A stretch of 64,000 nucleotides of DNA, from NCBI GenBank assembly GCA_964019425.1, contig OZ025801.1, positions 372,001-436,000 of the forward strand, in the 5' to 3' direction. The notes beneath the pieces are model-generated. The model was given only the letters and a program-made list of their open reading frames with translations, searched no databases and was not told the origin of the DNA. Shown piece by piece: positions 6,107 to 32,329 of this stretch. A program made the translations under genes and the position numbers. Source of the stretch: Flectonema sp. DT1601 (Eukaryota). Positions within the stretch are counted from its first letter, which is position 1; each line of letters starts with the position of its first letter.

Positions 6107-6455
6107 TTCTATTCACAGTATAGTATCATTAATTTTAGAACAGAAAAGTGAGAATAAGAAAAGTAGAGATTAATAAAAGAAAAGTATTCATTTCTGCAGT
6201 TTCCTAACATCAAAGGGTAATAGAATATGTAGTTTCAGGAGCCTTAATCTTATACTACTCGTCCCTTTTTAGGCCTTCATCAGTAAGTTCTAAGGGACTT
6301 CATTCTATGTTGAAGTTGCTATCTTTCAAAGATAAAAATCCATCATTCTATTCACAGCTAGTATCATTAATTTTAGAACAGAAAAGTGAGAATAAGAAAA
6401 GTAGAGATCAATAAAAGAAAAGTATTCATTTCTGCAGTTTCCTATTCACAGCTAG
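6107..6455. repeat. Local duplication of about 100 bp (6107-6206 and 6346-6444), with a 35-bp core repeated at 918-952
   Basis: TAGTATCATTAATTTTAGAACAGAAAAGTGAGAAT occurs at 918, 6121 and 6359. The two 6-kb copies stay near-identical through ...TTTCTGCAGTTTCCTA. Confidence 0.9.
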
Positions 6456-6778: not shown

Positions 6779-9700
6779 CTAAAAACCAAAAGCCGGCGGT
6801 TGAGAAGGTGTACTTCCATGATGAATGGCACGTCGAAGTTCGTCTTGGGCAGAATGCAACTGATGAAGGGAAGAATCAAGTTTATCAAGTTGTTCATGAA
6901 TGGTGTCGAGTGAAGATGCTGTTGACTGAACGTTGTGTTTAACTCCATCAACGTTTTCGTAAACCTCAGCGAGTGATGTTTGAATCCTCTGTCGGGTTTT
7001 TAATAATCGACTAACAGCTTCCTTTCTCATAATACGAGCAGGGAATTCTTCACAAGAAAAAGCCGATTCCATCGCCTCTATGAATTCTTCTCCCTTATGA
7101 AGAAACCTTCTCCGAATTTTTCGAAAAACCTTCCCTAGCAACACCATCACCGGATTTCCAGTACCTCGGGGTTTTGGAACCCTTGTTAGCTGGTACTGAT
7201 AATGATCAATTATCTGCCAACTCCATCGTTCAACAGATTTTGTTAAATTCTCTTCGTAGATGTTTCCAACGACGGCGATGAAGACGTTTATCAAAACCAA
7301 ATTTGCTAAAAATAAAGTCAACATAAACAACAACGGTCCTACCAACCAAGATTCTTGAAAGGCATTGAAATCCCACTGACCGAATACAATTTGAGTAAAA
7401 CTGACGAGAGTAGATTTAAAACTCTTAAACTGATCTGATGTAGTTCCAAGTAGAAGGTGTAATCCTAACATCAAAGCGATACTGATGACCATAAAAACTA
7501 CAAAGAAAATGAGTACTTTGCTATCTCCGATGGTGGCTGTGATGGCGTTAGCGACAGAACCAAGTTTCGGTAAGATCATAATATACTTTAATAACTTTAC
7601 AAAATACAAAACTAAAACTAATGCCCACAACTCTCTCTCAGCTACAGTTAGCGCAGCAACTTCCCAAAGATCAAAGAAAGTGTCTTTGTTTGTTATGATT
7701 TCCTCTGCATCTAATGCGACGGTTGCGCTAATGTAACTTCCTCGAGTACCAACAACTAACCAGAACATTAAAACACTGAGAAGGTCAACAAGATTCCAGT
7801 CTCTCCAGAAGTATCTCGCTAAACCAATCCAGATGTATGAAAGGACATTAAAAACTTTTTTCGAAATCGATAACGACAGCGATTGTCCCTCATGTTTATT
7901 TTCCTTCTCCTTTGCGATTCGCTGCTGTCGAGTTAGTTTTCGTTGGGTTCGTTCTTGAAGCCATTCCATGTCTTTAGATTCTTTTTTTAATCTCTTATCA
8001 TCGTCTTTCCAACTCTGATTAACATGAAGCCAAGACTCCCACACATCACAAGCCTCATCATACGTCAGTATCAAGACACTTAAAAGTAAACAAATCTCAA
8101 GAAAGAAAACCATACTATCAAAGAGTGTGTGACACGATAATTGTTTTGACGTCGCTCCAACAACGCAAGATTCTAATTTAATGTGAGTAAGTCTCATACT
8201 TGAATGACAACCACCGTAGTTTGTAATCTCAAATAGTATTCTTGTGTTTAAGAATCTGTGAGCACTTGGATTATAAATATTAAATTCTACGAATAAAGCT
8301 CTGGTCTGTAAGTCAATCCAACGTTCAGTCTGAAGGTCTCTAAACATAGTACTGGTGATATTCATTACGGGAGTATCAATAACGTATCCCGTGTTTGGGT
8401 AGTTTATATCCATCTGTGACGCCCATCCATAAAGAGATGGGTCAGCTTTACCTGATACGAATGTTGATTTTTGATAAGTACCTCCAGAAAGTTCATTTTC
8501 GCTAGTCCATGATCCATAACACTCTCTGTAGTATGGTTCAATCCACGATGGTCTTGAACATGATCCAGCTTTCACTCGTAGCTGACGTAACCTAACTGAT
8601 CCTACTACTGTGAGGGTTCCAATTTGATCATCTTTAATTTTATCAAATAAATCAGTAAATGGACCTGCCAACCAATCATGTAACTCCTCAGTATCTCCAA
8701 CTGTTATTAGAGTTCTTGAAAACGGACTGTCTGAAAAATGAACTTCTTCATCTCTAATCGCGTCACGGAATCCTTGTATTAAGAAATAAGCGTCTTCGTG
8801 AAATAAATTAGTTTTATTGTGAGCAACCATGCAGAGGACCGCAAGGAATAAAAAATAAAAAGTAGCCTCCCATAAGAATATCTTCGTTGCCTGTAATGCT
8901 AATTTTCGTTGAATTCGAGGGTCCTTATTAAGAAGCGTTATCTGATCTCTGAGAATGTTGTGATCCCGTTCCCATTCTCTCGATAAGTTTTCTTTATAAA
9001 AACCCTTTTCTTGAAATGAATGGTGAAGTAGTAGTGCGATACTACAATCATGAGCGTCGACCGATCCCGACACCCTTTTATTCCTCCAATATGGTTTTGC
9101 TCCTGCTTCCATAAGAGGCTTAATACAAATTGGATGACAGAGTGAAGCAGCAACATGAAGAGGAGTGTTTCCCTCAGTATCTAAACTGTGAATATCATTC
9201 TTTTGAACATGAGGATTATTTATAAGAATATTCAAACATTCAATCGACCCTGCATAACAACTATAATGCATCGCAGCTCTTTCTAATATTTCAGTCCTTG
9301 CTGATGCGCTTGCGGGATGTTCGTTGACGGCTCTTTCTAGGAGTCTTTTTTGATCTCTTGCTGCAGCCCAATGAATTAAATTTAAACCACCGTCAACTTC
9401 TTCCCATGATATCTTTCCTAGAATGGGTTCATCGTTTATTATGTTTATACTTTTAAATTCCCGTCGATGTTGGAGTTGGATATCACCGAATTCAGAAGGC
9501 AACGACACTTTAGGAAACAGTTCCACAGCATCACCCCAACGCATAATACTCGACACGCAATACGGAGCGAACTTCAATGCGATTAGAAGTGTTGTCGCAG
9601 AGTAGTCAGAATGAACCATACTATTAACACCCATTCTATCCCATGTTCTTGATAGGATCAGACGCTCAGTACAACCTGATGAGGTCGCGAAGTATGAATG

Positions 9701-12700
9701 TTCTGGTTCATCAATAACAGGAGGGACATCTATATATTGTTTACATCCTCTCGGTGGGGGGTTACCAGATACTGAGATACTTCTCTCCATGAATGAACAG
9801 GCGATTAGTTGTTTCGCAACTCTGACATGTCGAAACACACGAATTCCTAACTTTGCGATATCCGGTTCGAGATCCTGCGCAGTATCTAAATAAGTAGTAA
9901 GTCTATCTGATCTGTGGAATAAAGTAACGTCTGACATTCCAGATACAAGAAATGAAGGATGTCGTATTGATAATTGATCATGTCGTAGCTGTGACACTGC
10001 CGTGTTGAATGCTCCAAAACTGGCTTCAGCTGGACTAGGCATTGGAGATGCCGGTGACATAGGAGATGGAATACCTGCTGAAGCAGCATATGGAACCGCT
10101 CGCGTAAAAAAACCAGCAGCAGTAGCACCAGTTCTTATGTGATACGGTTGTTTATTACGAGGTGCGGCAATCGCTTGACCAGAACTTCCAACGACATCCC
10201 AACGACCTCCAAATGCGACGTTATCATCATAGTCAGTGACTCCAATGTAAATAAGTGATGCGTGAATAGGAAGTAATCCTTCTTTGTCTCGTTCTTTGCA
10301 TCCCCAAATATCAACATAGTGATCTAACTCTAGTCGTTCTGTTTCATAGCAAAGCGATCTTTTTAATAAACCTCCTTGAGCTTTTTGTTGTCCAATCATA
10401 CACTCAACTACTTCATCGAGTCCGAAGTGGATTGCAAGTCTGAGAGGTGTGATGTCGTCGCATTTCTTCTTTGGTATGTCAAGAAAATAACAAGGATCTC
10501 TGCTGTTTAAATAATTTATTGTCTTCCTCAACACGTTTAGAGTGTCCTGATAAAGAGAAGTCTTCAATCGGTTTTCTGCTTCTTCTTTAATTTTAAAAAG
10601 AGGACTCGTTTTAATTGTCGCTCTCCTCAACATCATTGCAGCGCTGGTGTAATCAGCAACAGCGACATCATCGCCTTGTCCAGCTTCGCAATCTCGTTTA
10701 CGTTCGTGTAGTAGTTTAATTAGATATTGTAAAGGATATTTGCGTAATGAATCTGAAACAATAAATTTAACATTCTCAAGTGTGAAATAGTGAAGCGGAG
10801 TTAATCCACTTTGTGCTAATTCCGACAGCTGTCTATTTCCAGGTGATGCTGACGGGGATAATCGAGTAGCCCTTCTAGTAGACGTGTTCCTTGGTTGAGA
10901 ACCTTCATCAGGTGTGCTGTAGAGTTCAGGTGAGAAGGTTGCAGCAGCTAAGAAGATTTCACCGACATGTCGATTATCAGAACCAAAATCAATAGTTTTA
11001 CAAGAAAGTCCTCTGAGAAGTTTCATCTGAACGAATTCTCTCGGAACTGTTGACTCTCCGTCATCAAGAAAGTTTAAATTCTGAAATCTAATAACCTGAA
11101 CAGCTGTGTGTCTTTTGACGTATTCTAATAGACCTTTTGCGGCATCAACATCGAACAGAGTACTACATCGTTGTTGGAATTGAGAAACATCAACCATGAT
11201 CCCTTTACCAAATGTTGAAAGGATATCTAGTGCTTCATTAGCAGTCTTTCTATCTTTCTTTAATGAAAGAACTTTCAAGATGTCTTTTCGATAACGCTGT
11301 TCGTGGAAATTTTCAATTGATATTGATCTGTCATCTAAAAGGGTCCTCAATGACACTTCAGCTCTGTGAACTCTCTTTTCTTCTTCGATGGCTAAGGTTT
11401 GTTTTCCGAGATCCTCATCCGACGCAAAGGTGTACGAATCAGTAGTTTCAGAATACACAAAATGATGCATAATCAAATCAATCTGTGTACACGTAACGAA
11501 GTTTAAATCCAACGTAAAGTTATTAGAACCAGTCACCAATGAAGCCAGAGGTCTGACCTCTTCTAAACCATCACCAAGAGAAGGAGAGACTGATATATCA
11601 CCGTATGTTCCAGATGTGTATTTTAGTATTGATAAGTTTGAAAGAGCAGAAACAGTTACACTCGTGTGCGTAATCCAATCTTCGAGAAGACTTTCTTCAG
11701 CAGGACTCAATACGACCCCTTGAATGTCTAAATGTGTTAGTAAGATAGAGTTGGGTTGAACTATTCTGCTCCATAAAGTGTTCATAAGGACTTCACTCAT
11801 TAGTAGTGTTGTTCCATGGCTTGGATAAGTAGTTTCATGACGTTCTTTAAATAAAGTAAACGTTTCTGGGATATGATCGGCACTCAAACAATAAAAATAA
11901 TGATCGAAAATATCACATCCCATTGGACGAGATTTCATTTCCAAAACACTACAACGCTGACGAGCTTCTGAATAGGTATGACTCAGCTCATGGTGATGAG
12001 CTGCAACCAACGGCATCCAAATTTTCTTACTCGATTTTCCTTTTCCGGATGTACCTTTTTGGTATTCAATGCAATCATTGTCGAGAATGTTTTTAACCCA
12101 AAGTTCAATATCGAGGTTTTCCATTTCGTCAATGTAGACAAATCCATATCGATCAATACTTCCACTTCGCATTGCCATGTTCTCATCTCCGTAATAACAA
12201 AACTGACCTCCATAACGTTTTGAAGGATTCATTCTCATGAGGAATGTACTTGACGATGATATGACTTGAAATCGGACATGAATACCACTTTGAGTTTGAA
12301 TAAAGTCAGCTTGGATTGTTGAATCTTCATTGTCGACGACGTAACTGTACATCGGATAACATAATTCTATCCATGAGAAGGGACAATCTCTTACGGATAC
12401 TTCTTGTAAGGCTTGACTCAGACCTAATAGAATCTGACATGATCGGAGTCGACCTGTTTTGTGGTATTAATATGAGTGGCGTGTTGAGGTAATTCATTCG
12501 AAGAAAAGAGAGAACAAGAAAAAATAATAATACCTGTCAACATCCCAGCATAATTGTAGTGTTGATGAAGTGGAATTGTAAGTACCTGATCAGAACTTTC
12601 ATTTCTAAGACCGTTTATCAACGAAGTAAATAAAACTCTAATTGAATCAAGTGAAAGAGGTGATTGACTTTGAGGAACAGCATCATAAGGAATAGAAATA

Positions 12701-15700
12701 CCCGCTTTCAGCATTGCGTTAATGACAGACATGTGAGGAGCAGAGTCGAGATATTTAGATGAAGCTGTAATTATAAATGCTTTACGAAAGACACTTGATG
12801 GATCACTATTAGAACTCGTCCCCTTAAGCCCAGGTACTATATGAAGAATCCACTCAACTACAGTAACACTTCCATGTGCTGCTGCTATCTCTAAGGCTGA
12901 CATGTTGTCATCATTCTGTTGAAGTATTATTGACATTTGATGATCAGCGCTCTCAATTTCTTGATCACCTCCGTAGGGTTTAAACTGTTGTTCAGCAACA
13001 GCTAAGACATCGTCGAGTACTGTTGTAGCATATTTATGATCTCCTTCCCATCTTGCGATTCCGTGAAGTACAGTTTCTCTCATGTGATTATCAGCCGAGA
13101 AAGGATCAGCACCCATTGATAATAAATAACCAATCACATCATCATACTTTTTATGAACTGCCAGGTGTAATGCCGTGTATGAAGACTTGTCAGGTTTCTC
13201 CAACAAAGTAGAGTCATATTCATGAATCTTTTTCACAAGTGAAAGCAAACCTGACGACACTGCCGCATGTAAAGGAGTCTCTTCAATCGCAATAACAGGA
13301 ACACCTTTTATGAATGATGATATGTCAGTTGTAGAACCTTTACTTGGGATGGTAATACAGTCACCGAATTGATATGTTAATTTATCACTTGAGTTAGAAG
13401 GATCTGATATAATGAGACCATGTTTTGATATAACGTGCCAAGTCTCAAAACCATAACCATCCATTCTGGTGATGTCAATATCGAAGTCGTGAGCGAATCC
13501 TAAAAGCTCCTCAACTGTTTGAAGATGTTTATTTGAGATGGCTTCCAGTAAAGCAGTTTTTCCAAGACCTGAATTCTGACGAGTTCCAAATAACTGCTGC
13601 ATATCGATGAGAGGGTCATCAGCATCTTCATCATCTGCTCTTATTAATTGTGATTGATAACCTTCTAATAACATTTCTACTATCTCAATGTGACCTTTCC
13701 TTGACGCAACATGTAAGGCATTTGAGTCACCAAAAGCTTCTTTCTCATCTTCCTCTAACCCTAAGGCATCTTCTGTAAGGTTATTCTCTGTTGGTATTAT
13801 CTGAATTTCCTTGTCGAGGAGATATTTTACTATTTCCGTGTTGTTAGTGTTTGCTGCTCGTAGAAGTGCGAGACCCCAATCAATAAACTGATAAGCTTTT
13901 TGATTAACTCTTCCACCAAATTCCCTAAGGATAGCAGCATGTCCATTCTCTGCAGCTGTTGCTAAGGCTGGGAGGTAAATCATTTCACTCCAACCGTAGA
14001 TGTATCCAGCTTGAGAACTAGATCCAGCCATTCCTGTTGATTGAGCGACGGAAGGTGTTTTAACAATTTTATTAGAAAGAACAGCTCGCAGAACATCAGC
14101 GTGATTAGCAGCAGCTGCTCTCATCAGAGGAGTACATCCTCTGTTGTCTTCAGAACAGAGTAAGTCAAACCATTCATTACCAGCTTTTGTTATTAAAGTT
14201 AACATAACACGTTTGAGACCAACTGTACTGGCGACATGTGCTGCTGTTTCTCCAGAAGAGTTTTTTGCTAAAATGTCGACACCGTTTTCAGAAAGTAAAT
14301 CAACGGTTTCTCCGATTCTCTCATCTAATTCAATAGCTTTAGGACCAGTTCTCTGTAACGCAAAATGAATTGGAGTATCTCCTGTTGAAGAAAGCATTAA
14401 GCTAAGTTCAGAAAATATTTCAAGTCTTCGTATGGTTCTGATGTCAAGTCTCTTAGCAGCGATGTGTAGAAGTGATGCTCCATCTATCCCTCTAACACAC
14501 ATCGCTTGTTCTTGGGCTGATTTAGTTGACAACAAATATTTAGTAACAGTCTTTCTCTGGTTGTTAACGGCAACCATTAGCGGTGTAGATCCTTGGCAAT
14601 CTACGACTAACGCTGCTTCAGGAGACTTTCTCATCATTGCTTCAACAACAGGAGCACATCCAACTTTAGCAGCTGCGTGTAATGGAGTGCTCAGTTTATA
14701 ATTCTGAACACCTGGATCAGCATCACCCAAGTCTAATAGAATGTTTACTGTTTCTAAATGAGAAGTTTTAGCTGCGGCATGCAGACACGTAGACCCAGCA
14801 GCAGCACCAGTGTCGAGACTGAGTCCTAATTTTAATATGTCTTGAATTACTGATTGAGAATGATTATTTCTCATAACTTCAAGGTGGTATCGAAGTCTTG
14901 CATTGTCTCCTTGCATACCTGCTAAGTAAAATGGAGTAGAAACTCTCTCACGCATTGCTTTTGTGAATGGTCGAGGAGCAGGTGCTAAACTAGAACTAGT
15001 TGCAACTGGAGTGACGTCAAGAATCTCTTCGTAGCCGTACACTTCAATAGTTGATACAAATAGAGAAGGAGTTGGATTTGAATCTCTTTCAGGACTGTTT
15101 AAAGAAATAGTTCTGCTGGTCGGAGGTTTTCCCAACTTTTTCCTCAACTCTTGTCTTGTCTTTGTAAGAGCCATACAGTATTGATTATCACATTCAACTT
15201 CAATTGTGTATTCAGAAGACGGAACAATTATTTTATCATCCGTATCTAATAACGCTAATTTCACTGTTTCACTTTGACCAACTAAAGCTCTGACTGCATC
15301 TCCAAGACGCTCTGTTCCAACAGCAGAAGAGGTGCTGTTTTTTTGCTTTTCCTCGATATAGTTCCATATGCTGGTGTATTCTTTACCTTTTAAAGTAAAT
15401 GGACCAGTCGTCTTTAGAGACAATGCTTTGATCTGACTGATGTCAATTGTATTTTGTAACTGATCATTTCTAATATACATTAGTATGTCACAGTAGGTGT
15501 CGTATTTTGGTTCTGCAAAGACACGTAAATTTGAAGTCTTTGTCTGCATTAGTGCTTTACGACTGGCTAAGCTGTGACCTAATAAGGCTCTGATTCCATC
15601 AACCATAATATCTGCATTGTGAATGTTGTCATGCATTTGTAAGTAAAATCTCATATTTTTATACATCTTTCCTCTGAGTTCAAAGGGAACTCCGTTAGAA

Positions 15701-18006
15701 GAACATGGAGAGAGTTCAAGTATCCCAGAGATGTCTTTTTGATTATCATTTCTGGTAGTTTTAGAAGTAATTCCTGAGGAGTCATTGATGACTATCGCTG
15801 CCGGTATCTTTAAAGTCATTACAATGCTGTCAGACATGACGGAATCTCCGTCCATTTCACCTCTTTGAATTCTCTCTTTAAGAATATGTCTGACTTGTTC
15901 AAGAGCTTTACAGTAGTCTCTGTTTTCATGACTGAGAGGGCTGCGACCTGTTTCTAAGAGGGCATTTGCAATTTTTGAATCTGTGTCTACATATTTAAGA
16001 ACGCCATCAACGTCTGATTTCTCACTAAACTGCTCAGGTGGTAATAGCATTTCAGGAAGTGGAATTCCTGTCTTTCGAGTTCGAACTCCCTCTAGAGCGA
16101 GGCAGTACTCAAGGTACTTCTCTTCGCCGTCGTTAAATTTTAATCGCTTTGATCCTGTAGCAACCAAGGAAGCAATTTTATCCTGGTCAGAATCAATGAA
16201 TCGATAAACAGCTTTTCGTAATGCCAACGGATCGTTTAAAAAGAATGAAATAATACTCTTGGGAGGATGGAGTTCAGGAGGGATTTCAATTCCAATCAAA
16301 TCAGATCGAATTGAGTGAAGAGCAACACAAAACGCTTCTGTTTCGTGATGGAGAAGACGTTTACCAGTTGAAACTAATACCATTTCCCTCATATGGTCTC
16401 CAATAATTAACCTTCTAACACTATCTTCCAACTCTAAGGGATCAAGCATACCGAGAATACTAATGTCCGGTAGTAATATTTGAGGAATTACTTGTGATAT
16501 CTCTTCTCTTATTATCATCAAAGCATTCGAGAAAGGGAAATATTCATGTCGTAGAACTGAATTCTTATCTGTTGATAACAACTGTAGCTTTGCAGCTACA
16601 GGATCTTTAGATTTTAAGAAACAATGTTCTCTAATGAGCTCGAGTAACGTAGTCATATCTTCAGAATCGTGAGGGATGTTATTTATATTATCCATTGAGT
16701 TTAGTTGAGCAAGTACTGCTTTAGGAATGTTACTAAGTCTGGAAGGAACATCTATCCTCGGTTTTAATTCCTCATTAAATTCTTTTCTAACTATTTCCAA
16801 AGCTGAACAGTACAGTGCAGCTCCCAATAATTGAGTTCCTGTTTGGGGATACCTGAGTGTTGCATCACCTGTTTCTAAGAGTACATCACGAAGCTCAGGA
16901 TGCTCTTCAAAATGAATTTTAATTTGACCAGACACAGACTCAGCAGTCATTTCTTTATGAAGGAGATCTGTAACACTTGCTGGGGGGACTCTTAATCCCT
17001 CTGGGAGGTCAACTCCTTTAACAGCTCTCCCTTTCCAATTTTTTAACTTCGTTCTCGTTGGTGATGAAGGAGCAGATTGTAATCCTACTTCACCATCATA
17101 AGCAGTAACAACAACAAGAGCTGAATATGCGTATGTTGGATTTACTATATGAACATGAGTAGCATTCTTCTTCTCATCTGTTTCTGTTCTAGTTTGTAAT
17201 AACAAACCAGAGTCACCATGTAGTGGTTCTGTTGTGGTGTTACGAGGATATTTTAGTACAAACTTTTTAGTAACGTCCATATTTTGAAAAGGTCTGATAG
17301 GACGATTTCCAACACTACAGAGGACAAACACTTCACCGATATCAGTTCCAGTCAGAACTAAGTTTGTTAATGCCATTGAAGTACAACTTGGAGGTGGAGC
17401 TACATAAATCTGAAGAACACTACCATCACCAGCATTACTCAAGGGTGTGATTGCCATCTTACCACGTGGTGTCTGTGGTGTTATCCCTCGAGGGGTTTTT
17501 GGTCCAAGAGCAGGTACTCCAGTTGCATTCATTTCTTGCTGTTGATATTGAAAAGGACCAGTACTGTGAGCACTATTCACAGATCCCCAAGTCAGCTCTC
17601 TACTCTGAGTTTGTTGTAATTGTTGAATTGGGTTCCTCTCATGACGTGGTGACTGCACAACTTTAAAAGGCCACAATGCGGTACTTCCAAATATCGAATG
17701 GTTTAAGTCGGGTAACTTTGCAGCCAGTGCTGGGACTGTTAAAGAACGTAGACCTGAAGGAACAGATTTACATTCATCAATACCAGCATCACGTTCTCTC
17801 TTTTGTCTCGAGTGATTTACTTGTGGTCCACTCTTAAACCTTTGAAGCATAAAGGATGGTGCCGTAATAGGCCCAGCCATGCTGGTCATCGATTGATGCG
17901 GTCCTAACGACGCGCTGTGACTCGCATTAACTCCTGGCCCATGTGACAGACTTTGAAAAGATCGCTCCCTTCTGAAACCCAATTTTGGGCTGCTTGGGAA
18001 TTCCAT
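6779..18006 (-). CDS. Giant polycystin-2/TRPP-like cation channel with ankyrin repeats and N-terminal NADAR-like repeats, 3,715 aa, 2 exons (18006-12534, 12453-6779)
   Basis: An 80-nt intron at 12454-12533 (GTATTA...CACAAAACAG) joins the 1860-aa and 1857-aa ORFs in frame (LTG|RLRSCQ...CYPMYS). The C-terminus has PKD-channel motifs VGSVRLRQLRV, WIDLQTRALFVEFNIYNP, YFWRDWNLVD, FGQWDF, LINVFIAVV and a coiled coil. Many ankyrin motifs (TPLHAAA, TALHLAV, GNTPLHVAA). Confidence 0.85.
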
Positions 18007-18575
18007 CGCATCTTATGTTATGGCCTGAGGAAAAAAGAAATTCGTTGAGACCTTTAGAAGTGATTTCGTAAATACCATAATCGTAATAAATATTATTACG
18101 GTACGTCAAGCGTACCGAGGGGTGTCTTTGCATCATTCCGTTGAAGGCTTTTTTCCTAACTGAAAAAAACACGAATCCGAAATGCGAATTATCAAAAGCT
18201 TTTACTTCTTTCTGTGAATACCGTGAGAGGTGCATCACTTTACTCACTCAAATGTTTCGAAGAAAGCAGGCAAATATTTTTTTGTCGCAATTTCTAATTT
18301 TTTTTTTTTTTTTTTTTTCCCCCATAAAAACGTGTTTTTGGGGACAACAAAAGATTGTAAATAGAACACAAAAAAACAGGAAACAAAACCCTCCAACAGG
18401 AAGGCATCCGCGAGAACGATGCTTACCAACGATCTGTGTTTCTGGGATAGTTGAAACAACATATCAGGTTAGAAGAAGTCAGACATTACAGCAATAGAAT
18501 ACAATACATATGAAGCTTCCTAACTACCCTAATAATTCCATTGATCTCCATTTCATATGATAAACGGATGATAAT

Positions 18576-21213: not shown

Positions 21214-21461
21214 GCGTTTTATAAATCAGACATCCCTGTGGTGGAATTAAAAATATGTGGAGTTAGTTGTCAGCTTGTTACAAGGCAACTGTTACATAGT
21301 AATTGTGTTTCCTATTTTAAATAAAAGCTAAACAAGACGAGGAGGTATCTCCATACTGAAATCCAACACATTATGACTGGCTTATGATGATAACACAGTA
21401 CGGGCAACTCGGGTTATGACCTCAACAAATACTATCAAGAGATCAGAGTACTTACTACTGC

Positions 21462-22153
21462 TTAGGCAACAACCTGCTGAAGGGCAGGGTTGGACATGAA
21501 TCCAAAGCTGACGGCACGTCCGGTCAACTTCTTGTAGGCAGCGGTGAAGGTGTCGATCTGTTTGTTGTTTTATAGATAAACAGTTGCATTACTGAAAGAA
21601 AATAGAAATAATAAAATGAAAGTTAGGTCACATCATTACTACTATTAAATATTCATACCTTGGAGTCGAGCTTGTTCTTGTCACGAGCATCAAGGTACAC
21701 CTTCAAGTGCTTTGATCCATCAACCAACTGTCTGATACGCTTACCACAGATGTCGTTAGGGTAGCAGATGTCGTCAAGGACGGCCTCCTGAACAGCCTTC
21801 ATGGTTCTGCTACGTGGGATTGGGCAGTGAGTAGTGGCACCAGTGGTCTGGATCTTTCTCTGGGCAACGAAGATGAACTGTCTCTGGAGCTTCTTCTCGA
21901 GGTCAGCAACCAACATCTTCTGAACCTTGTGAAGCTTTCTGATGAAACGAAGTGGGAAGAAGACAACGGCAGCGGTCTTGGTGGAGGTCACTTCGACAAC
22001 CTTCACGGAGTTGATGACGAATCCGGTGAGGGCAGACTTCACGTTCTTCGAGTTCTGCTCAGAGTCGTAGATGACCTGAGCAACCTTGGTCTCGAGCTCG
22101 GTGGCAGTCTTACGGTGAGACTTACGGATCTTGTTCATGGAAGGGGACGACAT
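21462..22153 (-). CDS. RPS7: 40S ribosomal protein S7 (eS7), copy 1, 196 aa, exons 22153-21659 and 21557-21462
   Basis: eS7 motifs (ADLEKK, FVAQRKI, PRSRTMKAV, GKRIR..VDGS, AYKKLTG). 101-nt intron at 21558-21658. Confidence 0.95.
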
Positions 22154-22401
22154 TTTGTGTGAAGTAAGTTTAACCCGAAAAAGTGGTTGGACCTGAGGGG
22201 ACAACGAAATAAAGAATAAAGCAAAATATTCAATCTAATCGTGGCTGCGACAACAAAGGATATTTTGAGAACTCGTAGCGGGGTGATGTGATTTTTCAAC
22301 ACTAACTTTGCTTTCTGGTACTTTTATGAACAAAACGTCCCTTTCAGCCGCCTGCTGCAGTTGCTTCTGTCTTCAAAATTGCGGTCCCTCATATAACATA
22401 T

Positions 22402-23134
22402 TTATGCAACAACCTGCTGAAGGGCAGGGTTGGACATGAATCCAAAGCTGACGGCACGTCCGGTCAACTTCTTGTAGGCAGCGGTGAAGGTGTCGATCTG
22501 TTTGTTGTTTGTTAGGGCTACTACATTCAACTTACAATTGGACAATCTAAGCTGAGAGACTAGGTGAGGCTTCCACTTCCTTAAAGCAGCACTTCTTAAA
22601 CTCAATAACAGAAATAAAAATTAATTATTCAATACAAACCTTGGAGTCGAGCTTGTTCTTGTCACGAGCATCAAGGTACACCTTCAAGTGCTTTGATCCA
22701 TCAACCAACTGTCTGATACGCTTACCACAGATGTCGTTAGGGTAGCAGATGTCGTCAAGGACGGCCTCCTGAACAGCCTTCATGGTTCTGCTACGTGGGA
22801 TTGGGCAGTGAGTGGTGGCACCAGTGGTCTGGATCTTTCTCTGGGCAACGAAGATGAACTGTCTCTGGAGCTTCTTCTCAAGGTCAGCAACCAACATCTT
22901 CTGAACCTTGTGAAGCTTTCTGATGAAACGAAGTGGGAAGAAGACAACGGCAGCGGTCTTGGTGGAGGTCACTTCGACAACCTTCACGGAGTTGATGACG
23001 AATCCGGTGAGGGCGGACTTCACGTTCTTCGAGTTCTGCTCAGAGTCGTAGATGACCTGAGCAACCTTGGTCTCGAGCTCGGTGGCAGTCTTACGGTGAG
23101 ACTTACGGATCTTGTTCATGGAAGGGGACGACAT
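22402..23134 (-). CDS. RPS7: 40S ribosomal protein S7, copy 2, exons 23134-22640 and 22497-22402
   Basis: Same protein as copy 1. 142-nt intron at 22498-22639 (GTTTGT...ACAAACAG). Confidence 0.95.
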
Positions 23135-23625
23135 TTTTATTTGTTAAATTGATAACTGTGTGAAACAAAACACATTTTATTCACAACAGAAGACATCATA
23201 AGCAGCACTAAATGCCAGCAAATCCTTAACAACTTCCGACAGCTTGTGATGGACGCTACTCCCAGACCTCCCCTACTCCAACATATCCTTCAGACTCTGT
23301 GATGCTACCAGATGGTCCCTTCGTGGAATGGGCAGCACCCGTGGAGGTAGTGCCGAAAGTATATTATTCAAGGATCACCTGCAGTAGAATAGAAGATTTC
23401 AACAAACTAACTAACGAACTAATACTCTTCTCGATCGATAAAAGGTTTGATACCGTCACGAGATACCGTCACGATGGGCTAATTCACGGAGAGAAAAAAA
23501 GAAGAGGAAAGCGAGCCTTTCCAAAAAAAATAAAAAAAGGAAAACATAAGCAACGGATGATTATAAGATACGTAAATAATAACAACACTTTTTATTCTTT
23601 CTCTCAACTTCCTTGTTGTCTATTC

Positions 23626-24288
23626 TTAGGCAACAACCTGCTGAAGGGCAGGGTTGGACATGAATCCAAAGCTGACGGCACGTCCGGTCAACTTCTTGTA
23701 GGCAGCGGTGAAGGTGTCGATCTGTTTGTTTATAAATATTAGTTTACTTAAGCCCTTGAAAGGAATAGAGTTTAAATTAACTTATTGACATACCTTGGAG
23801 TCGAGCTTGTTCTTGTCACGAGCATCAAGGTACACCTTCAAGTGCTTTGATCCATCAACCAACTGTCTGATACGCTTACCACAGATGTCGTTAGGGTAGC
23901 AGATGTCGTCAAGGACGGCCTCCTGAACAGCCTTCATGGTTCTGCTACGTGGGATTGGGCAGTGAGTGGTGGCACCAGTGGTCTGGATCTTTCTCTGGGC
24001 AACGAAGATGAACTGTCTCTGAAGTTTCTTCTCAAGGTCAGCAACCAACATCTTCTGAACCTTGTGAAGCTTTCTGATGAAACGAAGTGGGAAGAAGACA
24101 ACGGCAGCGGTCTTGGTGGAGGTCACTTCGACAACCTTCACGGAGTTGATGACGAATCCGGTGAGGGCAGACTTCACGTTCTTCGAGTTCTGCTCAGAGT
24201 CGTAGATGACCTGAGCAACCTTGGTCTCGAGCTCGGTGGCAGTCTTACGGTGAGACTTACGGATCTTGTTCATGGAAGGGGACGACAT
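23626..24288 (-). CDS. RPS7: 40S ribosomal protein S7, copy 3, exons 24288-23794 and 23721-23626
   Basis: Same protein. 72-nt intron at 23722-23793 (GTATGT...ACAAACAG). Confidence 0.95.
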
Positions 24289-24604
24289 TTTTATTTGTTA
24301 AATTGATAACTGTTTCGGAAACGAAAGATAACATCCCACACATTACCCTCAACAACAATCGGCAACGTTCCGATAAAAGCCTAACATGAGTGTTGCCAAG
24401 TCGATAGCCTGTGTCGAGAAGAAATATTTTCAAACTGGCCTAACCTGATTGATAACATGAAGAGATCACAATGCCCTCAGTTTTTTTTTTTTTTCTTGTT
24501 TTTTTTAAACTTTTTTTTTTTTTGAAAATTCACTATCTTTTGCTTCTTACAACAATGGATAAAAAGCAATCACTGAGCCTGAATTAAAAATGTCACGACA
24601 CCGC

Positions 24605-25296
24605 TTAGGCAACAACCTGCTGAAGGGCAGGGTTGGACATGAATCCAAAGCTGACGGCACGTCCGGTCAACTTCTTGTAGGCAGCGGTGAAGGTGTCGAT
24701 CTGTTTGTTGTTTTATAGATAAACAGTTGCATTACTGAAAGAAAATAGAAATAATAAAATGAAAGTTAGGTCACATCATTACTACTATTAAATATTCATA
24801 CCTTGGAGTCGAGCTTGTTCTTGTCACGAGCATCAAGGTACACCTTCAAGTGCTTTGATCCATCAACCAACTGTCTGATACGCTTACCACAGATGTCGTT
24901 AGGGTAGCAGATGTCGTCAAGGACGGCCTCCTGAACAGCCTTCATGGTTCTGCTACGTGGGATTGGGCAGTGAGTGGTGGCACCAGTGGTCTGGATCTTT
25001 CTCTGGGCAACGAAGATGAACTGTCTCTGGAGCTTCTTCTCAAGGTCAGCAACCAACATCTTCTGAACCTTGTGAAGCTTTCTGATGAAACGAAGTGGGA
25101 AGAAGACGACGGCAGCGGTCTTGGTGGAGGTCACTTCGACAACCTTCACGGAGTTGATGACGAATCCGGTGAGGGCGGACTTCACGTTCTTCGAGTTCTG
25201 CTCAGAGTCGTAGATGACCTGAGCAACCTTGGTCTCGAGCTCGGTGGCAGTCTTACGGTGAGACTTACGGATCTTGTTCATGGAAGGGGACGACAT
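24605..25296 (-). CDS. RPS7: 40S ribosomal protein S7, copy 4, exons 25296-24802 and 24700-24605
   Basis: Same protein. The 101-nt intron at 24701-24801 is identical to that of copy 1. Confidence 0.95.
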
Positions 25297-25441
25297 TTTT
25301 AAAAGACTACTGATGTCTGAATGGGGGAAAGAAGTCAATACAAAATAAACTTTTATTAATAACACACGCAATTAAGTATTTGTTAAATCCCTAACAATAA
25401 CCATATCTGAAAACAGTACCTCCGTAAGAATGCTCTCAAAA

Positions 25442-28072: not shown

Positions 28073-29782
28073 TCAGCTTTCCTCACCAAATTCAAGTTTA
28101 CAACAGAACAATGTTTTGTAGATTCTCTGAACTTCTGTAAAAGTTGGTTTATGAGTTGTAAAAGGAACCCCAACGATTCTATTATCTGTTTTCTTTAGAG
28201 CGTATTGAGAAGAGTCGCGAACTAATGGAACTGCAACAGGATCATAAAAAGGTATTCTATTCATTGGTCCTGGAGCGTGAAGACAGATGGCAGCAGCTGC
28301 TGAGATTGGTGCTGCCCATGTGATGAGTTGTTCAATAATTAATTCTTTGTATCTGATTTCATGTCTTTTTCTCATCTGAGAACCAACTGTATCTGAACGA
28401 CCCTCATGGTTGGATTGTCTTCCTCCTTGTTTCTTACGAATAATATAACGACTGAAAGTTGTGTGAGACACGCATTCTCCTTTTGAGAAGATTCCTCCTG
28501 CGAATGAACCACCAACAGAAACCATAACGACAACACATCCTGAAATTATATTTTTAACAAATGAAATTGATGTTGATATTGGAACTGTGTCTTCTTCTTC
28601 TTCATCGTACCTCTCAACCTCATCTTCGCTGTCGTAATCATCCATGTCTAAGATATCATCATCACTCACATTGTCATTATCTTCGTTGATATTATTCGGA
28701 TCTTCGTGTTGTTCTGTTTTCTGTCCTTCAATAGATTTCATGTATTTCTTCTTTGCTTTGTGATCGGTCAGTAGCTCTACGGGTATCACAAAGTTGGGTT
28801 GAATTGATATTCCTTCTAATTTCAAAAGAGTTTTAAAAAGAGTTACAGAAACCCCATTACTTGTTAGAAGTACTGATGCCGTACCTTCGATTGCTTTTAT
28901 TGAGAATTCAACCTTCGGATCTGTTAGGTTGAGAGGAATGTCTTCGAATGCGATTTCTGTTTTATCAAATCTCTTACCCTTTGGAGGAGTTTTCTTCCTC
29001 CCAGGTGATTTAGGTGGTGACCTAGTCTTAGGTGGTGTTGGTGTTCGTCTTCCTTTAGTTGTTAAGATCGATGTTGAAAATACTTCATTCTCACTGGTTG
29101 TGATTTCTTTCCTTCCTCTTGCTTCTTTTCTAATTGCTGAACTTATTAATTTCTCAAAAGCATCCTCTAACTCTTCATTCCTAACTTCGATGTCTCGTTC
29201 CTTCTTTTTGACTGCTGCTTCACGGAGTTCCATCTGCTGAAGTTTTCTCTTTGCTTTTTTTTTCTCTCGGTTTCGAATTCTTTTTTCTGTGTCTTTGACA
29301 TCAGAACTGTGTTGTGAGAACATGATTGACGCATCTGTAATCCAATGTTGTTCTATTGGAAGTCTGTTTGGTAGGTCTGTTGATTCGAATAGAATGACCG
29401 ATCGAATGACTTCCTCCATCAAAATAGTTTCCGATAGTTGGATGTCAATAGCAGCTGCTACAGACATCCATTCTAATAGTTGCTTTTCTGTTTCTTGTAA
29501 GGAGTTGAGAAGATTTGTTTGTTTCTCTAAGAAAATCATGACTTTTTCAACCATCGCCGCGCCATACAATCTCGTGTCTGGTGGTGCTTCTGCTTTTGAT
29601 TTAAACTTCGCAGCCTTCGTTGCTATTCCTCCGGTTGTTAAGTTCTCAATCACACTTCTCAATTCGATGGAAGTTTTGTTTATTGTTTCTCTACCTGCTG
29701 TGATGATGATTGATGGGTCTAGTTTTCCATACTTCTCTGATAACTCGTCGAGTTCCTTTGATGTTCTACCAAATTCAGTCAT
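28073..29782 (-). CDS. Vms1/ANKZF1-like protein with a C-terminal VLRF1 release-factor-family domain and an N-terminal coiled coil; start uncertain
   Basis: GGSFAGGIF..GECVSHTTFSRYIIRKKQGGRQS...GSQMRK and D.RI..VPFTTHKPTFTEVQR. The first ATG after the pyrimidine-tract AG (29876-29877) is at 29782, but the frame stays open further upstream. Confidence 0.8.
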   Translation of the reverse strand: MTEFGRTSKELDELSEKYGKLDPSIIITAGRETINKTSIELRSVIENLTTGGIATKAAKFKSKAEAPPDTRLYGAAMVEKVMIFLEKQTNLLNSLQETEKQLLEWMSVAAAIDIQLSETILMEEVIRSVILFESTDLPNRLPIEQHWITDASIMFSQHSSDVKDTEKRIRNREKKKAKRKLQQMELREAAVKKKERDIEVRNEELEDAFEKLISSAIRKEARGRKEITTSENEVFSTSILTTKGRRTPTPPKTRSPPKSPGRKKTPPKGKRFDKTEIAFEDIPLNLTDPKVEFSIKAIEGTASVLLTSNGVSVTLFKTLLKLEGISIQPNFVIPVELLTDHKAKKKYMKSIEGQKTEQHEDPNNINEDNDNVSDDDILDMDDYDSEDEVERYDEEEEDTVPISTSISFVKNIISGCVVVMVSVGGSFAGGIFSKGECVSHTTFSRYIIRKKQGGRQSNHEGRSDTVGSQMRKRHEIRYKELIIEQLITWAAPISAAAAICLHAPGPMNRIPFYDPVAVPLVRDSSQYALKKTDNRIVGVPFTTHKPTFTEVQRIYKTLFCCKLEFGEES

Positions 29783-30157
29783 TTGATAAGCGTACTTAAA
29801 TAGGATACCGAGACTTCCAAATGCAACCGCTGGCTGCCACCAAGTTGAACCAAAAATTGCGATCGTTGTATGTGGCTGAAAAAAAAAAGGTATGTATGCG
29901 GAGAGCAATACACAACAATACTTAGAAAGAAACACCACTCAGGGCGCTCTTAGTTATTTTCTTCTTAAATGCCGAGGATAGGCGTGCGTACGTGGGCAAA
30001 GAAGCAGCACTTTCGTTTTCTTTTTTTCTCCCTGTCTTTTTTTTTTTTTTTTTTTTTTTTTTCCCCTCGTTTTATTCAACACACTTTCTTAAAAAAACTG
30101 GTGTATTTTTTATTAATTTTTTTTTTTTTAGAACAATAAATCTCCCAACAAGACGAA

Positions 30158-32329
30158 TCAAAATCGATTCCTGAGGAAGTCAATTTCAGCTTTAATATTA
30201 GCAACAGCCTGCTTGCCATATTTTTGTTGCATTTTGGTAGTGCAGTATGGACCTTCTGGATTCTCGAGAAAGGTTTGCATTGCCGTTGATCTCCCTTCAA
30301 TGAATTGAGGTACAGGAACATGTTGATACTCACGAGATATCTGTTCACTGTACTCAAAATATCTCGGTGTAGACCAACCAAGTACTCCAAGATCAATATC
30401 GAGGAATATAGCGAGGTCACCTGTTGCAGTCTTGCTGTGTTTCATGTGAGCCGCTGTTGACATGATCCAGTCAAATACCTGATTCGCATCCTCGTTTGAT
30501 ACGATGTCGGTGTTTTCAGAAGCAAATTTCATCCACATTTCGGCAGATAATTTTTCATTATCAGACTTTGTAGGATCATAAATAACATCATGGAAGAAGA
30601 TTGCGAACGAGACGAGGTCTGGACGAGTCATATCAGACTTTAGATCATCAAATAGTATGAACATCTGTTCAAGATGATCAAGACAGTGATAAGCTCTCTC
30701 TTCAGGTTTATTATAATAATCTCTGATAGTCCTCCACCAGAGAGCATTTCCTTTTGAGAGATCATTCCAACGGTTTGCGATACCACTGAGATCTGAAAGC
30801 TTTTTATCCATCCTCCCGGAATTTAGACCTTCCCAACAGTGGTTGACAACATCAACGAAGTCTTCATTTGTTAAGTGATTTGATAAGATGACATGACTTT
30901 TCTTAATCTTTTCTATCCCTGAGAGTTGGGCGTTAATCCGAAGGTTAGCATCCTCTTCTGACAGGTCAATCCCCTTTTCCTTCTTTTCCCTTTCGATCAA
31001 ACGAGTGCGTGCGATTGCTGTCGGAGCTACAATACACCAGACCTCGTCAACTAAGTCGTCAAAACCGGCTTCGATTAAAACCGCAGCCTCTATGAAGAGA
31101 ACCTTACTGGTAGATGAATCAATTAATAATTGTAAGTCTTTAGCGATAATCGGCCAAACAATTCCGTTTAATCTTTCCTTTTCTGATTCTGAAGAGAAGA
31201 ATATCGCTCCTAGCTTTCGTCTATCAATCTCTCCATCATCACCTAAGATAGATTCACCGTATTCTTTGACGACGAGATCTTTTCCTGCTGTACCTGGAGC
31301 GTAGGCATTGTGTCCAACTTTATCAGCGTAGATAACTTCAGCACCAAGAGTTTCAAGGTGTTTAGATGCGGTAGTTTTACCACAACCGATGCTACCAGTA
31401 AGACCTACAATGTATGGTTTTGATGATGTTTTCTTACACATTAGATAGTCTCCGTGGAGTAGACCTCCTGTAAGGGCTTGTCGGGCACCTGAAGATGATA
31501 GTTTTGAATTCTTATTTAATTCTTCTTTAATTGATCCAGTTGGAGATACTAGTCCAACGATAACGACATCAAGTGGAGGCATTCCTAACTCAGCTCGTTT
31601 AGCGTTGCAGGCATCACCTCCGGATTTAGTTTCTTCACTCACAGTAATACAATTAAATGAAGAGTCAGTAATTGAGGGTCCGTACCCGTCAATTAGTTCG
31701 CCTAATTCATACTTTACATCGTGTCTGACAGATCTTAAAAAAGATCTAACTTCACGTTCTCTCATTCCATATGGTTGTATTAATTCTTTAAGAGCTTTCT
31801 CTTTGAATAATGCATCACCAGCTATGCCACAAAATAATCTTCCTCCCTTCTCTACGGAGCATGCAGCAATAGATAGAAGAAGTTTTTGTCCAATGTGAAG
31901 TCTGTCAAATGTTCCACCCATGCATATGTTAGCGTATCTTTTCATTGGAGTAGTAGTATCGATCTTGCTTACAGGATCTGACTCTTCCGGAGGTGATAGT
32001 TTTTCCCAAAGAAGTCCAAGTTCACGAGCGACAGACTCTTCTCCAGGGTATCCCAGCAATGTTGATGTTTCCGGTACGTGTGAACAGTTCGAAGGAATTC
32101 CAGACAGAAGTACTCGGGTATCTAATTTCGGAGATGTAAAAAACGCTTTGTAATAAATTTCTCCCAACCTCTTCTGAAACGATTCCTGCCCCTCACCATC
32201 CTCCATAGACATCCCAACATACAGTCGATGTGTTGTTTCCCTTGCTGCGACGGTAACCTTTCCCAAATCATCTTCGTTGCGTATATTTACAAGAGCTACT
32301 CTGACCATTTTATTTGCGGTCTTTTTCAT
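30158..32329 (-). CDS. Bifunctional CoA synthase (PPAT + dephospho-CoA kinase) fused to a C-terminal HD-superfamily phosphohydrolase
   Basis: PPAT motifs GGTFDRLHIGQ, DGYGPS and VSEET..GG..N.KR; DPCK motifs GLTGSIGCGKTT, IDRRKLG and LNGIVWP; HD domain RAYH..DH, FFHDVIYDP...DNE..SA, FLDIDL.VLG and REY.HVP. Confidence 0.85.
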   Translation of the reverse strand: MKKTANKMVRVALVNIRNEDDLGKVTVAARETTHRLYVGMSMEDGEGQESFQKRLGEIYYKAFFTSPKLDTRVLLSGIPSNCSHVPETSTLLGYPGEESVARELGLLWEKLSPPEESDPVSKIDTTTPMKRYANICMGGTFDRLHIGQKLLLSIAACSVEKGGRLFCGIAGDALFKEKALKELIQPYGMREREVRSFLRSVRHDVKYELGELIDGYGPSITDSSFNCITVSEETKSGGDACNAKRAELGMPPLDVVIVGLVSPTGSIKEELNKNSKLSSSGARQALTGGLLHGDYLMCKKTSSKPYIVGLTGSIGCGKTTASKHLETLGAEVIYADKVGHNAYAPGTAGKDLVVKEYGESILGDDGEIDRRKLGAIFFSSESEKERLNGIVWPIIAKDLQLLIDSSTSKVLFIEAAVLIEAGFDDLVDEVWCIVAPTAIARTRLIEREKKEKGIDLSEEDANLRINAQLSGIEKIKKSHVILSNHLTNEDFVDVVNHCWEGLNSGRMDKKLSDLSGIANRWNDLSKGNALWWRTIRDYYNKPEERAYHCLDHLEQMFILFDDLKSDMTRPDLVSFAIFFHDVIYDPTKSDNEKLSAEMWMKFASENTDIVSNEDANQVFDWIMSTAAHMKHSKTATGDLAIFLDIDLGVLGWSTPRYFEYSEQISREYQHVPVPQFIEGRSTAMQTFLENPEGPYCTTKMQQKYGKQAVANIKAEIDFLRNRF

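What the first reader, a model, noticed from the sequence alone, without database searches (positions are those of the whole stretch)
15140..16960. About seven degenerate NADAR-like repeats fused to an ankyrin-TRPP/polycystin channel: candidate ADP-ribose-sensing ion channel
Seen in sequence: a recurring unit L-[LV]-x-T-[GDK]...[YF]-C/S-x-A-L-x-x-[IVT]-R, namely FEEHPELRDVLLETGDATL..YCSALEIVRKE, LLSTDK..FSNALMIIREE, VLVSTGKRLL..FCVALHSIR, LVATGSKRL..YCLALEGVR, LLETGRSPL..YCKALEQVR, ALMQTK..YCDILMYIR and ALLDTDDKII..NQYCMALTKTRQE. The last two units also carry LS....PF.L.GK.Y....Y. Established knowledge: these match the NADAR/YbiA pattern (LSNF..PF...G..Y...EHY, KF.Q...L...LL.TG, G.N.LG..LM.VR). 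Some NADAR proteins remove ADP-ribose from guanosine, and TRPM2 is gated by ADP-ribose through accessory domains. The EHY glutamate and the WG motif are missing here, so the repeats are probably non-catalytic. Inference: an array of ligand-binding NADAR modules regulates a PKD2-like channel within one 3,715-aa chain. The fusion appears only after splicing the 80-nt intron, and I know of no such architecture.
Basis: partly seen in the sequence, partly recalled or inferred. Interest (0 to 1): 0.85.

Follow-up and report, generated by a model that had tools for sequence, protein, structure and literature searches.

The report
NADAR enzyme domain fused to channel
Marine diplonemid flagellates encode a giant polycystin-type ion channel with an ADP-ribose-handling (NADAR) enzyme domain in the same chain; related species have one near-intact copy that may sense ADP-ribose, while this species has seven worn-down copies that have lost the binding residues and likely act only as a scaffold.

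Summary
Confirmed: seven repeats at 16980-15127 (minus strand); each beats 500 shuffles in leave-one-out tests. They are NADAR-derived. Profile match to YbiA-type NADARs is 94%. An AlphaFold model of repeat 7 from a NADAR-free alignment (pLDDT 86.6) has three NADAR structures as its top three hits among 48,161 chains. The fusion is supported: a Flectonema neradi transcriptome protein (3,715 aa, 79% identical, same seven repeats) reads straight across the 80-nt intron. New: the Diplonema papillatum and Namystynia karyoxenos orthologs carry ONE near-intact NADAR at the same place. It keeps 6-7 of 8 ADP-ribose contact residues, but the catalytic glutamate is replaced by Phe. The window's two fullest repeats keep 0 of 8, and the other five lack most of the pocket. 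So this array most likely does not sense ADP-ribose; it is probably a scaffold grown from a dead enzyme. The ADP-ribose-sensor idea fits the single-domain orthologs, which would parallel TRPM2 with a different enzyme fold. Nothing functional was tested. My literature searches found no description; databases label these proteins only 'Polycystin-2' or 'N-glycosidase YbiA'.

The parts
12534..18006 (-). Exon 1: ATG at 18006; N-terminal region, NADAR-derived array, first ankyrin array
   Evidence: ORF and first Met; aligns to Flectonema P0124 from residue 1
12454..12533 (-). 80-nt GT-AG intron that joins the two ORFs in frame
   Evidence: Best of 52 in-frame GT-AG options against the transcript-derived ortholog, which reads AGMLTG-RLRSCQ across it; T-rich 5' part and A-rich ...ACAG end like the inferred myosin intron 60805-58954
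6779..12453 (-). Exon 2: unclassified middle region, second ankyrin group, PKD2-like channel, C-terminal tail
17083..17421 (-). N-terminal conserved region of about 110 aa, no family assigned; shared with D. papillatum
   Evidence: BLAST P0124 42-309 vs P0131 31-291, 28%, pairwise E 4e-20; no PDB sequence hit
16774..16980 (-). Repeat 1 (short; C-terminal NADAR core only; best single match to YbiA)
   Evidence: HH 88.5% alone
16489..16671 (-). Repeat 2 (short, most degenerate)
   Evidence: 12.4 bits leave-one-out
16294..16464 (-). Repeat 3 (short)
16066..16257 (-). Repeat 4 (short)
15871..16044 (-). Repeat 5 (short)
15448..15741 (-). Repeat 6 (long: hairpin, EHY-helix equivalent and core; lid and WG loop deleted)
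15127..15447 (-). Repeat 7 (long; lies where the intact NADAR of D. papillatum and Namystynia lies; predicted NADAR fold without the lid)
12840..14800 (-). First ankyrin-repeat array (approximate ends)
   Evidence: PF12796 E 3e-51, 6 stretches; the end is read from the sequence
9401..12451 (-). Middle region of about 1,000 aa with no family, conserved across diplonemids
   Evidence: 80% identical to Flectonema over spliced aa 1781-2845; no Pfam, PDB or confident Atlas match
9077..9376 (-). Second ankyrin group, just before the membrane domain
   Evidence: PF12796/PF00023 above cut-off
7250..8881 (-). PKD2-like channel: S1 at about 8881, polycystin (TOP) domain 8707-8174, PKD_channel 7837-7250; pore reads IVFGQWD
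   Evidence: PF20519 72.8 bits (cut-off 23.6), PF08016 63.8 (22.4); best PDB hits polycystin-2, E 5e-26; hydropathy
6818..7021 (-). Conserved C-terminal heptad-like segment, likely coiled coil for subunit assembly (inferred)
   Evidence: weak sub-threshold hits to helical families; conserved in 7 of 7 aligned proteins

Best explanation
The gene encodes, after removal of one 80-nt intron inferred from an ortholog's transcript, a 3,715-aa subunit of a diplonemid PKD2-like channel family whose likely ancestral form carries one NADAR domain ahead of its ankyrin repeats; in this species and Flectonema that domain was likely duplicated into seven eroded copies that probably no longer bind ADP-ribose and likely act as a structural or protein-docking spacer. 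Shown: the repeats, their NADAR homology, the fused chain in Flectonema, one Pfam-grade NADAR at the same position in two other diplonemids, and loss of the pocket residues here. Predicted: the NADAR fold of repeat 7. Inferred: cytosolic location of the first 3,015 aa (no hydrophobic segment), cation-channel function as a tetramer, and stepwise erosion (about 145 aa intact, about 100 aa in repeats 6-7, 60-70 aa in repeats 1-5). In the single-domain orthologs the domain keeps most ADP-ribose contacts but has Phe at the catalytic Glu. It most likely binds an ADP-ribose-type ligand with little or no turnover (my odds about 0.6) and may relay that through the ankyrin stack to the gate (about 0.3).
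For: Homology: HH 94%, E 1.3e-7, against 0.1% for reversed and at most 13.4% for 60 block-shuffled profiles. A profile of the 7 window repeats alone scores 93 of 99 bacterial NADARs at >=10 bits, against 0 of 99 reversed, 0 of 495 shuffled and 0 of 102 other window ORF pieces. Fold: model from 8 NADAR-free rows, pLDDT 86.6; top hits 2b3w Z 10.2 (rmsd 2.5, 105 aligned), 8bau Z 9.8 (2.3, 103), 8bat Z 6.2 (3.8, 100), next 4.5, of 48,161 chains; Foldseek rank 1 is also 2b3w. Fusion: Flectonema P0124, 3,715 aa, 78.7% identical, 7 of 7 repeats. Family: D. papillatum KAJ9444316.1 NADAR E 7e-25, Namystynia P0130 E 1e-26, both just upstream of the ankyrins; one BLAST segment runs from repeat 7 onto the D. 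papillatum NADAR and on into the ankyrins. Pocket: 0 of 8 sites in repeats 6 and 7; 6 of 8 and 7 of 8 in the orthologs; 95-99 of 99 per site in bacterial NADARs. An aromatic residue before the last helix is shared by both diplonemid NADARs and 7 of 7 repeats (5 Tyr, 2 Phe), where 83 of 99 bacterial ones have Leu and none Tyr.
Against: No binding or current was measured. Only repeat 7 has a confident model; the whole array failed (pLDDT 32.3), so folding and packing of repeats 1-6 are unknown and a new composite site is not excluded. The Foldseek hit is not significant by E-value (0.09), and the aligner warns that Z under about 13 can be a common arrangement for helical models. Pfam does not call NADAR in the window protein; 5 of 7 repeats alone give HH under 3%. 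The repeat profile does not prefer diplomemid-type over bacterial NADARs (19 of 98 scored bacterial ones reach the lower diplonemid score). The ancestral state rests on two full-length orthologs; 3 of the 5 hits start downstream of the site, and the tree is only midpoint-rooted. A scaffold role is a default: the repeats are no better conserved than their flanks (59-79% vs 72% for the N-terminus). The splice is inferred from an ortholog, not from this species' RNA.
Confidence: 0.62

Rival explanations
1. One reading: the seven repeats form a multivalent array that binds ADP-ribose or a related nucleotide and gates the channel.
For: True NADAR ancestry; same chain as the channel; 7 of 7 repeats kept in Flectonema; TRPM2 precedent (PMC11479946 abstract).
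Against: 0 of 8 tabulated contacts in the two fullest repeats; the lid carrying R79/W89 and the D..W loop are deleted; repeats 1-5 lack half the fold.
Confidence: 0.08
2. The array binds something new (a protein partner, nucleic acid or lipid) on the surface exposed by loss of the lid, and regulates or localises the channel actively.
For: A conserved Tyr/Phe-Cys/Ser pair and L..T motif in all repeats of both species; one 12-residue linker identical between species; repeat 7 is predicted to fold stably.
Against: No partner identified; overall conservation no higher than the flanks.
Confidence: 0.17
3. The repeats are relaxed, near-neutral remnants of a duplicated dead domain, tolerated in a long N-terminus.
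For: Identity to Flectonema (59-79%) is close to that of the low-complexity N-terminus (72%) and below the channel (87%).
Against: About 600 aa kept in frame and in number in two species; 20-30% divergence between repeats with invariant L, T, L, R core positions; confident fold for repeat 7.
Confidence: 0.08
4. In this species the two ORFs are expressed apart (the intron's AG used for spliced-leader trans-splicing, start at Met 39 of ORF2), so the repeat-ankyrin protein and the channel are separate.
For: Diplonemid mRNAs are cut from polycistronic precursors by trans-splicing (PMC10161547 passages); ORF2 has a Met 33 codons after the junction.
Against: The ortholog's transcript-derived protein is continuous and matches the spliced junction residue for residue; three species have full-length fused proteins; the short Flectonema isoform ends at aa 1627, not at the junction.
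Confidence: 0.05

Closest known systems
TRPM2 with its NUDT9-H domain (choanoflagellate chanzyme; vertebrate pseudo-enzyme form). Seen: abstract and section list of PMC11479946, listings of related papers
   Same: A TRP-superfamily channel carrying an ADP-ribose-processing enzyme fold in the same chain, with loss of catalysis in some lineages.
   Different: Different enzyme fold (NADAR, not Nudix), N-terminal rather than C-terminal, on a PKD2-like pore with two ankyrin arrays; here multiplied to seven pocket-less copies; no activity shown.
NADAR/YbiA family (E. coli YbiA 2b3w; Phytophthora NADAR-ADP-ribose 8bau; Geobacter 8bat). Seen: section 12 and passages of PMC11543638, passages of PMC11125620 and PMC9503650
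   Same: Sequence profile and predicted fold of the core.
   Different: Window repeats lack the lid, the D..WG loop and all 8 tabulated ligand or catalytic residues; the diplonemid single domains have Phe at E125. Those papers' passages describe mostly free-standing domains, with fusions to other enzymes or in viral polyproteins, none to a channel.
C. elegans SNA-3 (three NADAR domains, trans-splicing factor). Seen: passages of PMC9303266
   Same: Tandem NADAR domains in a eukaryotic protein, one with its key residues lost.
   Different: Full-size domains in a nuclear protein; no ankyrins or channel; two domains keep functional residues.
TRPP / polycystin-2 (PKD2, PKD2L1)
   Same: TOP domain and S1-S6 region match; best PDB hits are PKD2, E 5e-26.
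   Different: 3,000-aa N-terminus with NADAR and ankyrins (animal TRPPs have none; recalled); the pore has GQW where PKD2 has GDI, so the filter aspartate (role recalled) is missing.

Membership tests
NADAR superfamily (window repeats) | Pfam PF08719 above curated cut-off | tested here: not met
   No hit at E<=0.1 in ORF1 or in Flectonema P0124
NADAR superfamily (window repeats) | Remote sequence homology to the NADAR core | tested here: met
   HH 94%, controls <=13.4%; 93 of 99 NADARs vs 0 of 696 controls at >=10 bits
NADAR superfamily (window repeats) | NADAR alpha+beta fold | tested here: met
   For repeat 7 only, as a prediction: pLDDT 86.6, top 3 of 48,161 chains are NADARs. Repeats 1-6 not modelled
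NADAR superfamily (window repeats) | ADP-ribose contact and catalytic residues (E43, K50, R79, W89, R93, E125, D130, W133 of 8bau) | tested here: not met
   0 of 8 in repeats 6 and 7; repeats 1-5 lack the segments that bear most of them
NADAR superfamily (D. papillatum and Namystynia orthologs) | PF08719 above cut-off and ligand-contact residues | tested here: met
   88.6 and 94.2 bits vs cut-off 35.1; 6 of 8 and 7 of 8 sites
NADAR superfamily (D. papillatum and Namystynia orthologs) | Catalytic acid at the E125 position | tested here: not met
   Phe in 2 of 2; an Asp two residues later is shared by both and might substitute, as a shifted Asp does in DarT-associated NADARs
NADAR superfamily | N-glycosidase or de-ADP-ribosylation activity | not testable with these tools
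   needs an enzyme assay
TRPP / polycystin-2 channels | Polycystin (TOP) domain between S1 and S2, and PKD_channel domain | tested here: met
   PF20519 and PF08016 above cut-off; PKD2/PKD2L1 are the best PDB matches
TRPP / polycystin-2 channels | Six transmembrane helices with a pore loop | tested here: inconclusive
   Hydropathy finds 5 segments above threshold; the sixth (S3) aligns to PKD2 by sequence; no model made
TRPP / polycystin-2 channels | Acidic selectivity-filter residue (L-G-D in PKD2; role recalled) | tested here: not met
   F-G-Q in 7 of 7 diplonemid proteins aligned
TRPP / polycystin-2 channels | Phylogenetic placement inside TRPP | not tested
   The tree held only diplonemid rows
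TRPP / polycystin-2 channels | Cation conductance as a tetramer | not testable with these tools
   needs electrophysiology
TRPM2-type ADP-ribose-gated channels | NUDT9-H and MHR domains on a TRPM pore | tested here: not met
   No such Pfam family reported in the window's ORFs or orthologs; an analogy only

The most novel reading that the evidence does not exclude
Diplonemids invented a second, independent ADP-ribose-gated TRP channel by grafting a catalytically crippled NADAR domain onto an ankyrin-polycystin pore. In the Flectonema lineage that sensor was then copied and pared down into a new helical repeat family, a snapshot of a repeat protein being born from an enzyme.
Probability: 0.3. 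Interest if true: 0.88.

Novelty: new variant of a known kind. Interest (0 to 1): 0.68.

Why it matters
Eukaryotic NADAR domains have almost no known physiological role (PMC11125620, discussion passage). A NADAR with ligand contacts kept and the catalytic Glu lost, fused to a channel, makes 'NADAR as a reader' directly testable, and in D. papillatum, called the model species of the group in its genome paper's title. If it gates, ADP-ribose control of TRP channels arose twice from unrelated folds. The window's gene separately shows an enzyme domain turning into a seven-unit repeat with intermediate stages preserved in one chain. If neither has a function, it remains an undescribed diplonemid channel architecture.

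Tried and rejected
No whole genome is held, so paralogs with an intact NADAR in this species could not be sought; the six frames of the window hold no second copy. No RNA holder was listed for 10000-18100; this is no evidence either way. A word-based search among 3,256-5,000-aa proteins found nothing, because the Flectonema cluster is represented by a 1,627-aa isoform. The exhaustive search with aa 198-965 found 1 protein among 1.84 billion representatives; truncated representatives, as for D. papillatum, can hide relatives, so the range of the seven-repeat form is not settled. No relative in JGI metagenome contigs (0 of 86 candidate stretches) or GenBank phages. Single-sequence AlphaFold of the whole array failed. 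Sequence searches of the PDB with the array or the repeat profile gave only chance hits and missed the NADAR entries. NCBIfam gave only a sub-threshold GrgA hit, rejected. The Atlas gave NADAR and gp30.3 clusters at 0.80-0.82, below its reliability level, so a lead only; for the middle region nothing usable. A score test of whether the repeats come from the channel's own NADAR was inconclusive. A viral-contig scan with YbiA gave 1 locus, unused. Literature: NADAR+ankyrin+channel 27 papers, the 20 listed off-topic by title; Diplonema+TRP channel 0; SLOG+TRPM+NADAR 0; diplonemid+polycystin 17, the 16 listed being ecology or taxonomy; diplonemid+ADP-ribosyl 4, off-topic; none of the 15 listed held 'NADAR domain'. 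Two comparative-genomics papers that catalogue such fusions were not held, and the paper that defined NADAR (recalled) was not seen; bioRxiv supplements are closed. Earlier scan notes held nothing on this gene; the eight partial-word notes concern other genomes and were not used. No complex prediction was run, as no protein-protein binding is claimed.
Full report
Setting. Nearly all long ORFs of the window lie on the minus strand. The closest relative of the gene is from the diplonemid Flectonema neradi (86% identity over 1,348 channel-side columns, support 100/100), so the window is from a diplonemid. Unidirectional gene clusters and GT-AG introns are normal there (passages of PMC10161547 and PMC12621601).

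Observation. The seven units are present as quoted, at 16980-15127. Leave-one-out profiles recover each one: 12.4-36.2 bits against shuffle maxima of 4.4-7.6, 0 of 500 shuffles reaching the real score in 7 of 7 cases. Pairwise identity between repeats is 15-33%. Repeats 1-5 are 60-70 aa; repeats 6-7 are about 100 aa and add the LS...PF.L.GK.Y segment.

NADAR ancestry. Standard scans miss it: Pfam reports no NADAR, and a profile of 99 bacterial YbiA-like proteins gives only 10 bits. Four tests find it. (1) Profile-profile comparison gives 94%, E 1.3e-7 over 51 columns matching YbiA 98-159; reversed profiles give 0.1%, 60 block-shuffled ones at most 13.4%, and without the best repeat it is still 82.8%. 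(2) A profile made only from the seven window repeats scores 93 of 99 bacterial NADARs at 10 bits or more, and 0 of 99 reversed, 0 of 495 shuffled and 0 of 102 other ORF pieces. (3) AlphaFold2 of repeat 7, given only the seven repeats and the Flectonema copy, gives pLDDT 86.6. Its top three matches among 48,161 chains are NADARs: Z 10.2, 9.8 and 6.2, next 4.5. Foldseek ranks YbiA first but with E 0.09, and such Z values can be commonplace for helical models. (4) Orthology, below. The whole array could not be modelled (pLDDT 32.3).

Fusion. The only relative of aa 198-965 among 1.84 billion representatives is a Flectonema transcriptome protein. Its cluster holds a 3,715-aa form under two accessions. 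It is 78.7% identical to the spliced window product, also 3,715 aa. Of 52 in-frame GT-AG choices, 12533-12454 scores best, and the ortholog reads AGMLTG-RLRSCQ across the junction. It has 7 of 7 repeats. The splice in this species is therefore inferred, with strong support.

The family. Searching with the middle and channel region gave 5 long proteins among 4,811 candidates. Namystynia karyoxenos P0130 (4,200 aa) has one NADAR at 433-572 (94.2 bits, cut-off 35.1). The D. papillatum cluster contains KAJ9444316.1 (3,516 aa) with one NADAR at 368-497 (88.6 bits). Both lie directly before the first ankyrin array, and a single BLAST segment runs from Flectonema repeat 7 onto the D. papillatum NADAR and on into the ankyrins (most of its score comes from the ankyrins). 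The other 3 of 5 hits (D. ambulator, two unnamed) begin downstream of this site and say nothing about it. Namystynia belongs to a different family, Hemistasiidae, so one intact NADAR is the likely ancestral state and the seven-unit array a derived state. The tree is only midpoint-rooted and Namystynia is a long branch. Profile scores do not single out the diplonemid NADAR as the source (19 of 98 bacterial ones score as high), but position and a shared aromatic residue before the last helix do.

The pocket. Section 12 of PMC11543638 names the ADP-ribose contacts in 8bau. I mapped eight onto YbiA through; others it names lie in the lid and were not tabulated. Bacterial NADARs keep each in 95-99 of 99. 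Namystynia keeps 7 of 8 and D. papillatum 6 of 8; both have Phe at the catalytic E125, and D. papillatum also has Gln at K50. Repeats 6 and 7 keep 0 of 8, with the lid and the D..WG loop deleted. Repeats 1-5 also lack the hairpin and EHY helix. The repeats are 59-79% identical to Flectonema's, like the N-terminus (72%) and below the channel (87%).

The channel. Polycystin and PKD_channel domains pass cut-off, and PKD2 and PKD2L1 are the best solved relatives. No hydrophobic segment precedes aa 3016, so the NADAR region is inferred to be cytosolic. The pore reads FGQ in 7 of 7 diplonemid proteins where PKD2 has LGD, so selectivity may differ. About 1,000 aa between the ankyrin arrays have no assigned family. 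I call it PKD2-like; membership of TRPP was not tested by a tree.

Mechanism. Most likely (0.62): a PKD2-like channel whose ancestral NADAR is a ligand-binding, catalytically weakened module, expanded in this lineage into a pocket-less scaffold. For the single-domain orthologs I put binding of an ADP-ribose-type ligand at about 0.6 and gating by it at about 0.3; a shared Asp two residues after the Phe could still support slow catalysis. Rivals: a new ligand or partner for the array (0.17), ADP-ribose binding by the array (0.08), neutral remnant (0.08), separate expression (0.05). All functional steps are inferred.

Comparison and novelty. It would work like TRPM2, whose ADP-ribose hydrolase domain became a gating module (abstract of PMC11479946), but it is not a member: different enzyme fold, position and pore. 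SNA-3 shows tandem NADARs in a eukaryote, without a channel. My searches found no description of a NADAR-channel fusion. The main text of the D. papillatum genome paper has none of the terms NADAR, YbiA, polycystin or ion channel. Its supplement lists an orthogroup labelled 'N-glycosidase YbiA' with KEGG 'ankyrin' among diplonemid expansions; it may be this family, which I did not verify. Papers I could not read and closed supplements might mention the fusion. Verdict: real, a new variant of the enzyme-fused TRP channel theme; interest 0.68.

Noticed in passing
P0131 aa 368-497 (D. papillatum KAJ9444316.1); P0130 aa 433-572 (Namystynia): Single near-intact NADAR on the orthologous channel, with Phe in place of catalytic E125 in both; the better target for an ADP-ribose-sensor test.
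   Followed up: yes
window 9401-12451 (-): About 1,000-aa region between the ankyrin arrays, conserved across diplonemids, with no Pfam, PDB or confident Atlas match.
   Followed up: partly
window 42610-55310 (-): Six abutting ORFs with intron-like GT...ACAG junctions, probably one multi-exon gene of about 4,000 aa with a hydrophobic start and Thr/Ser-rich stretch; no Pfam family above cut-off in the five scanned.
   Followed up: no
window 55687-56829 (-): ORF with a sub-threshold ADP-ribosyltransferase hit (PF01129 21.0 bits vs cut-off 22.3), 38 kb from the channel gene; adjacency carries little meaning in polycistronic clusters.
   Followed up: no
window 21457-25301: Tandem array of about four near-identical ribosomal protein S7 copies, 93-99% identical at DNA level.
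   Followed up: no
window 57079-62170 (-): Myosin gene split by an inferred 1,852-nt GT-AG intron at 60805-58954 with the same T-rich then A-rich make-up as the 80-nt intron.
   Followed up: partly
window 28073-29938 and 30158-32389 (-): A VLRF1 release-factor-like protein, and a dephospho-CoA kinase in a 743-aa ORF with a weak HD hit.
   Followed up: no
window 6107-6206 and 6346-6444: A 100-bp direct repeat (97%) downstream of the channel gene, 35 bp of it recurring at 918-952.
   Followed up: no
PMC10161547 supplement file 5: Orthogroup OG0005516 ('N-glycosidase YbiA', KEGG ankyrin) has 3-6 members in four diplonemids and 1 each in two other euglenozoan columns; Polycystin-2 orthogroup OG0000093 has 28-60 per diplonemid.
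   Followed up: partly
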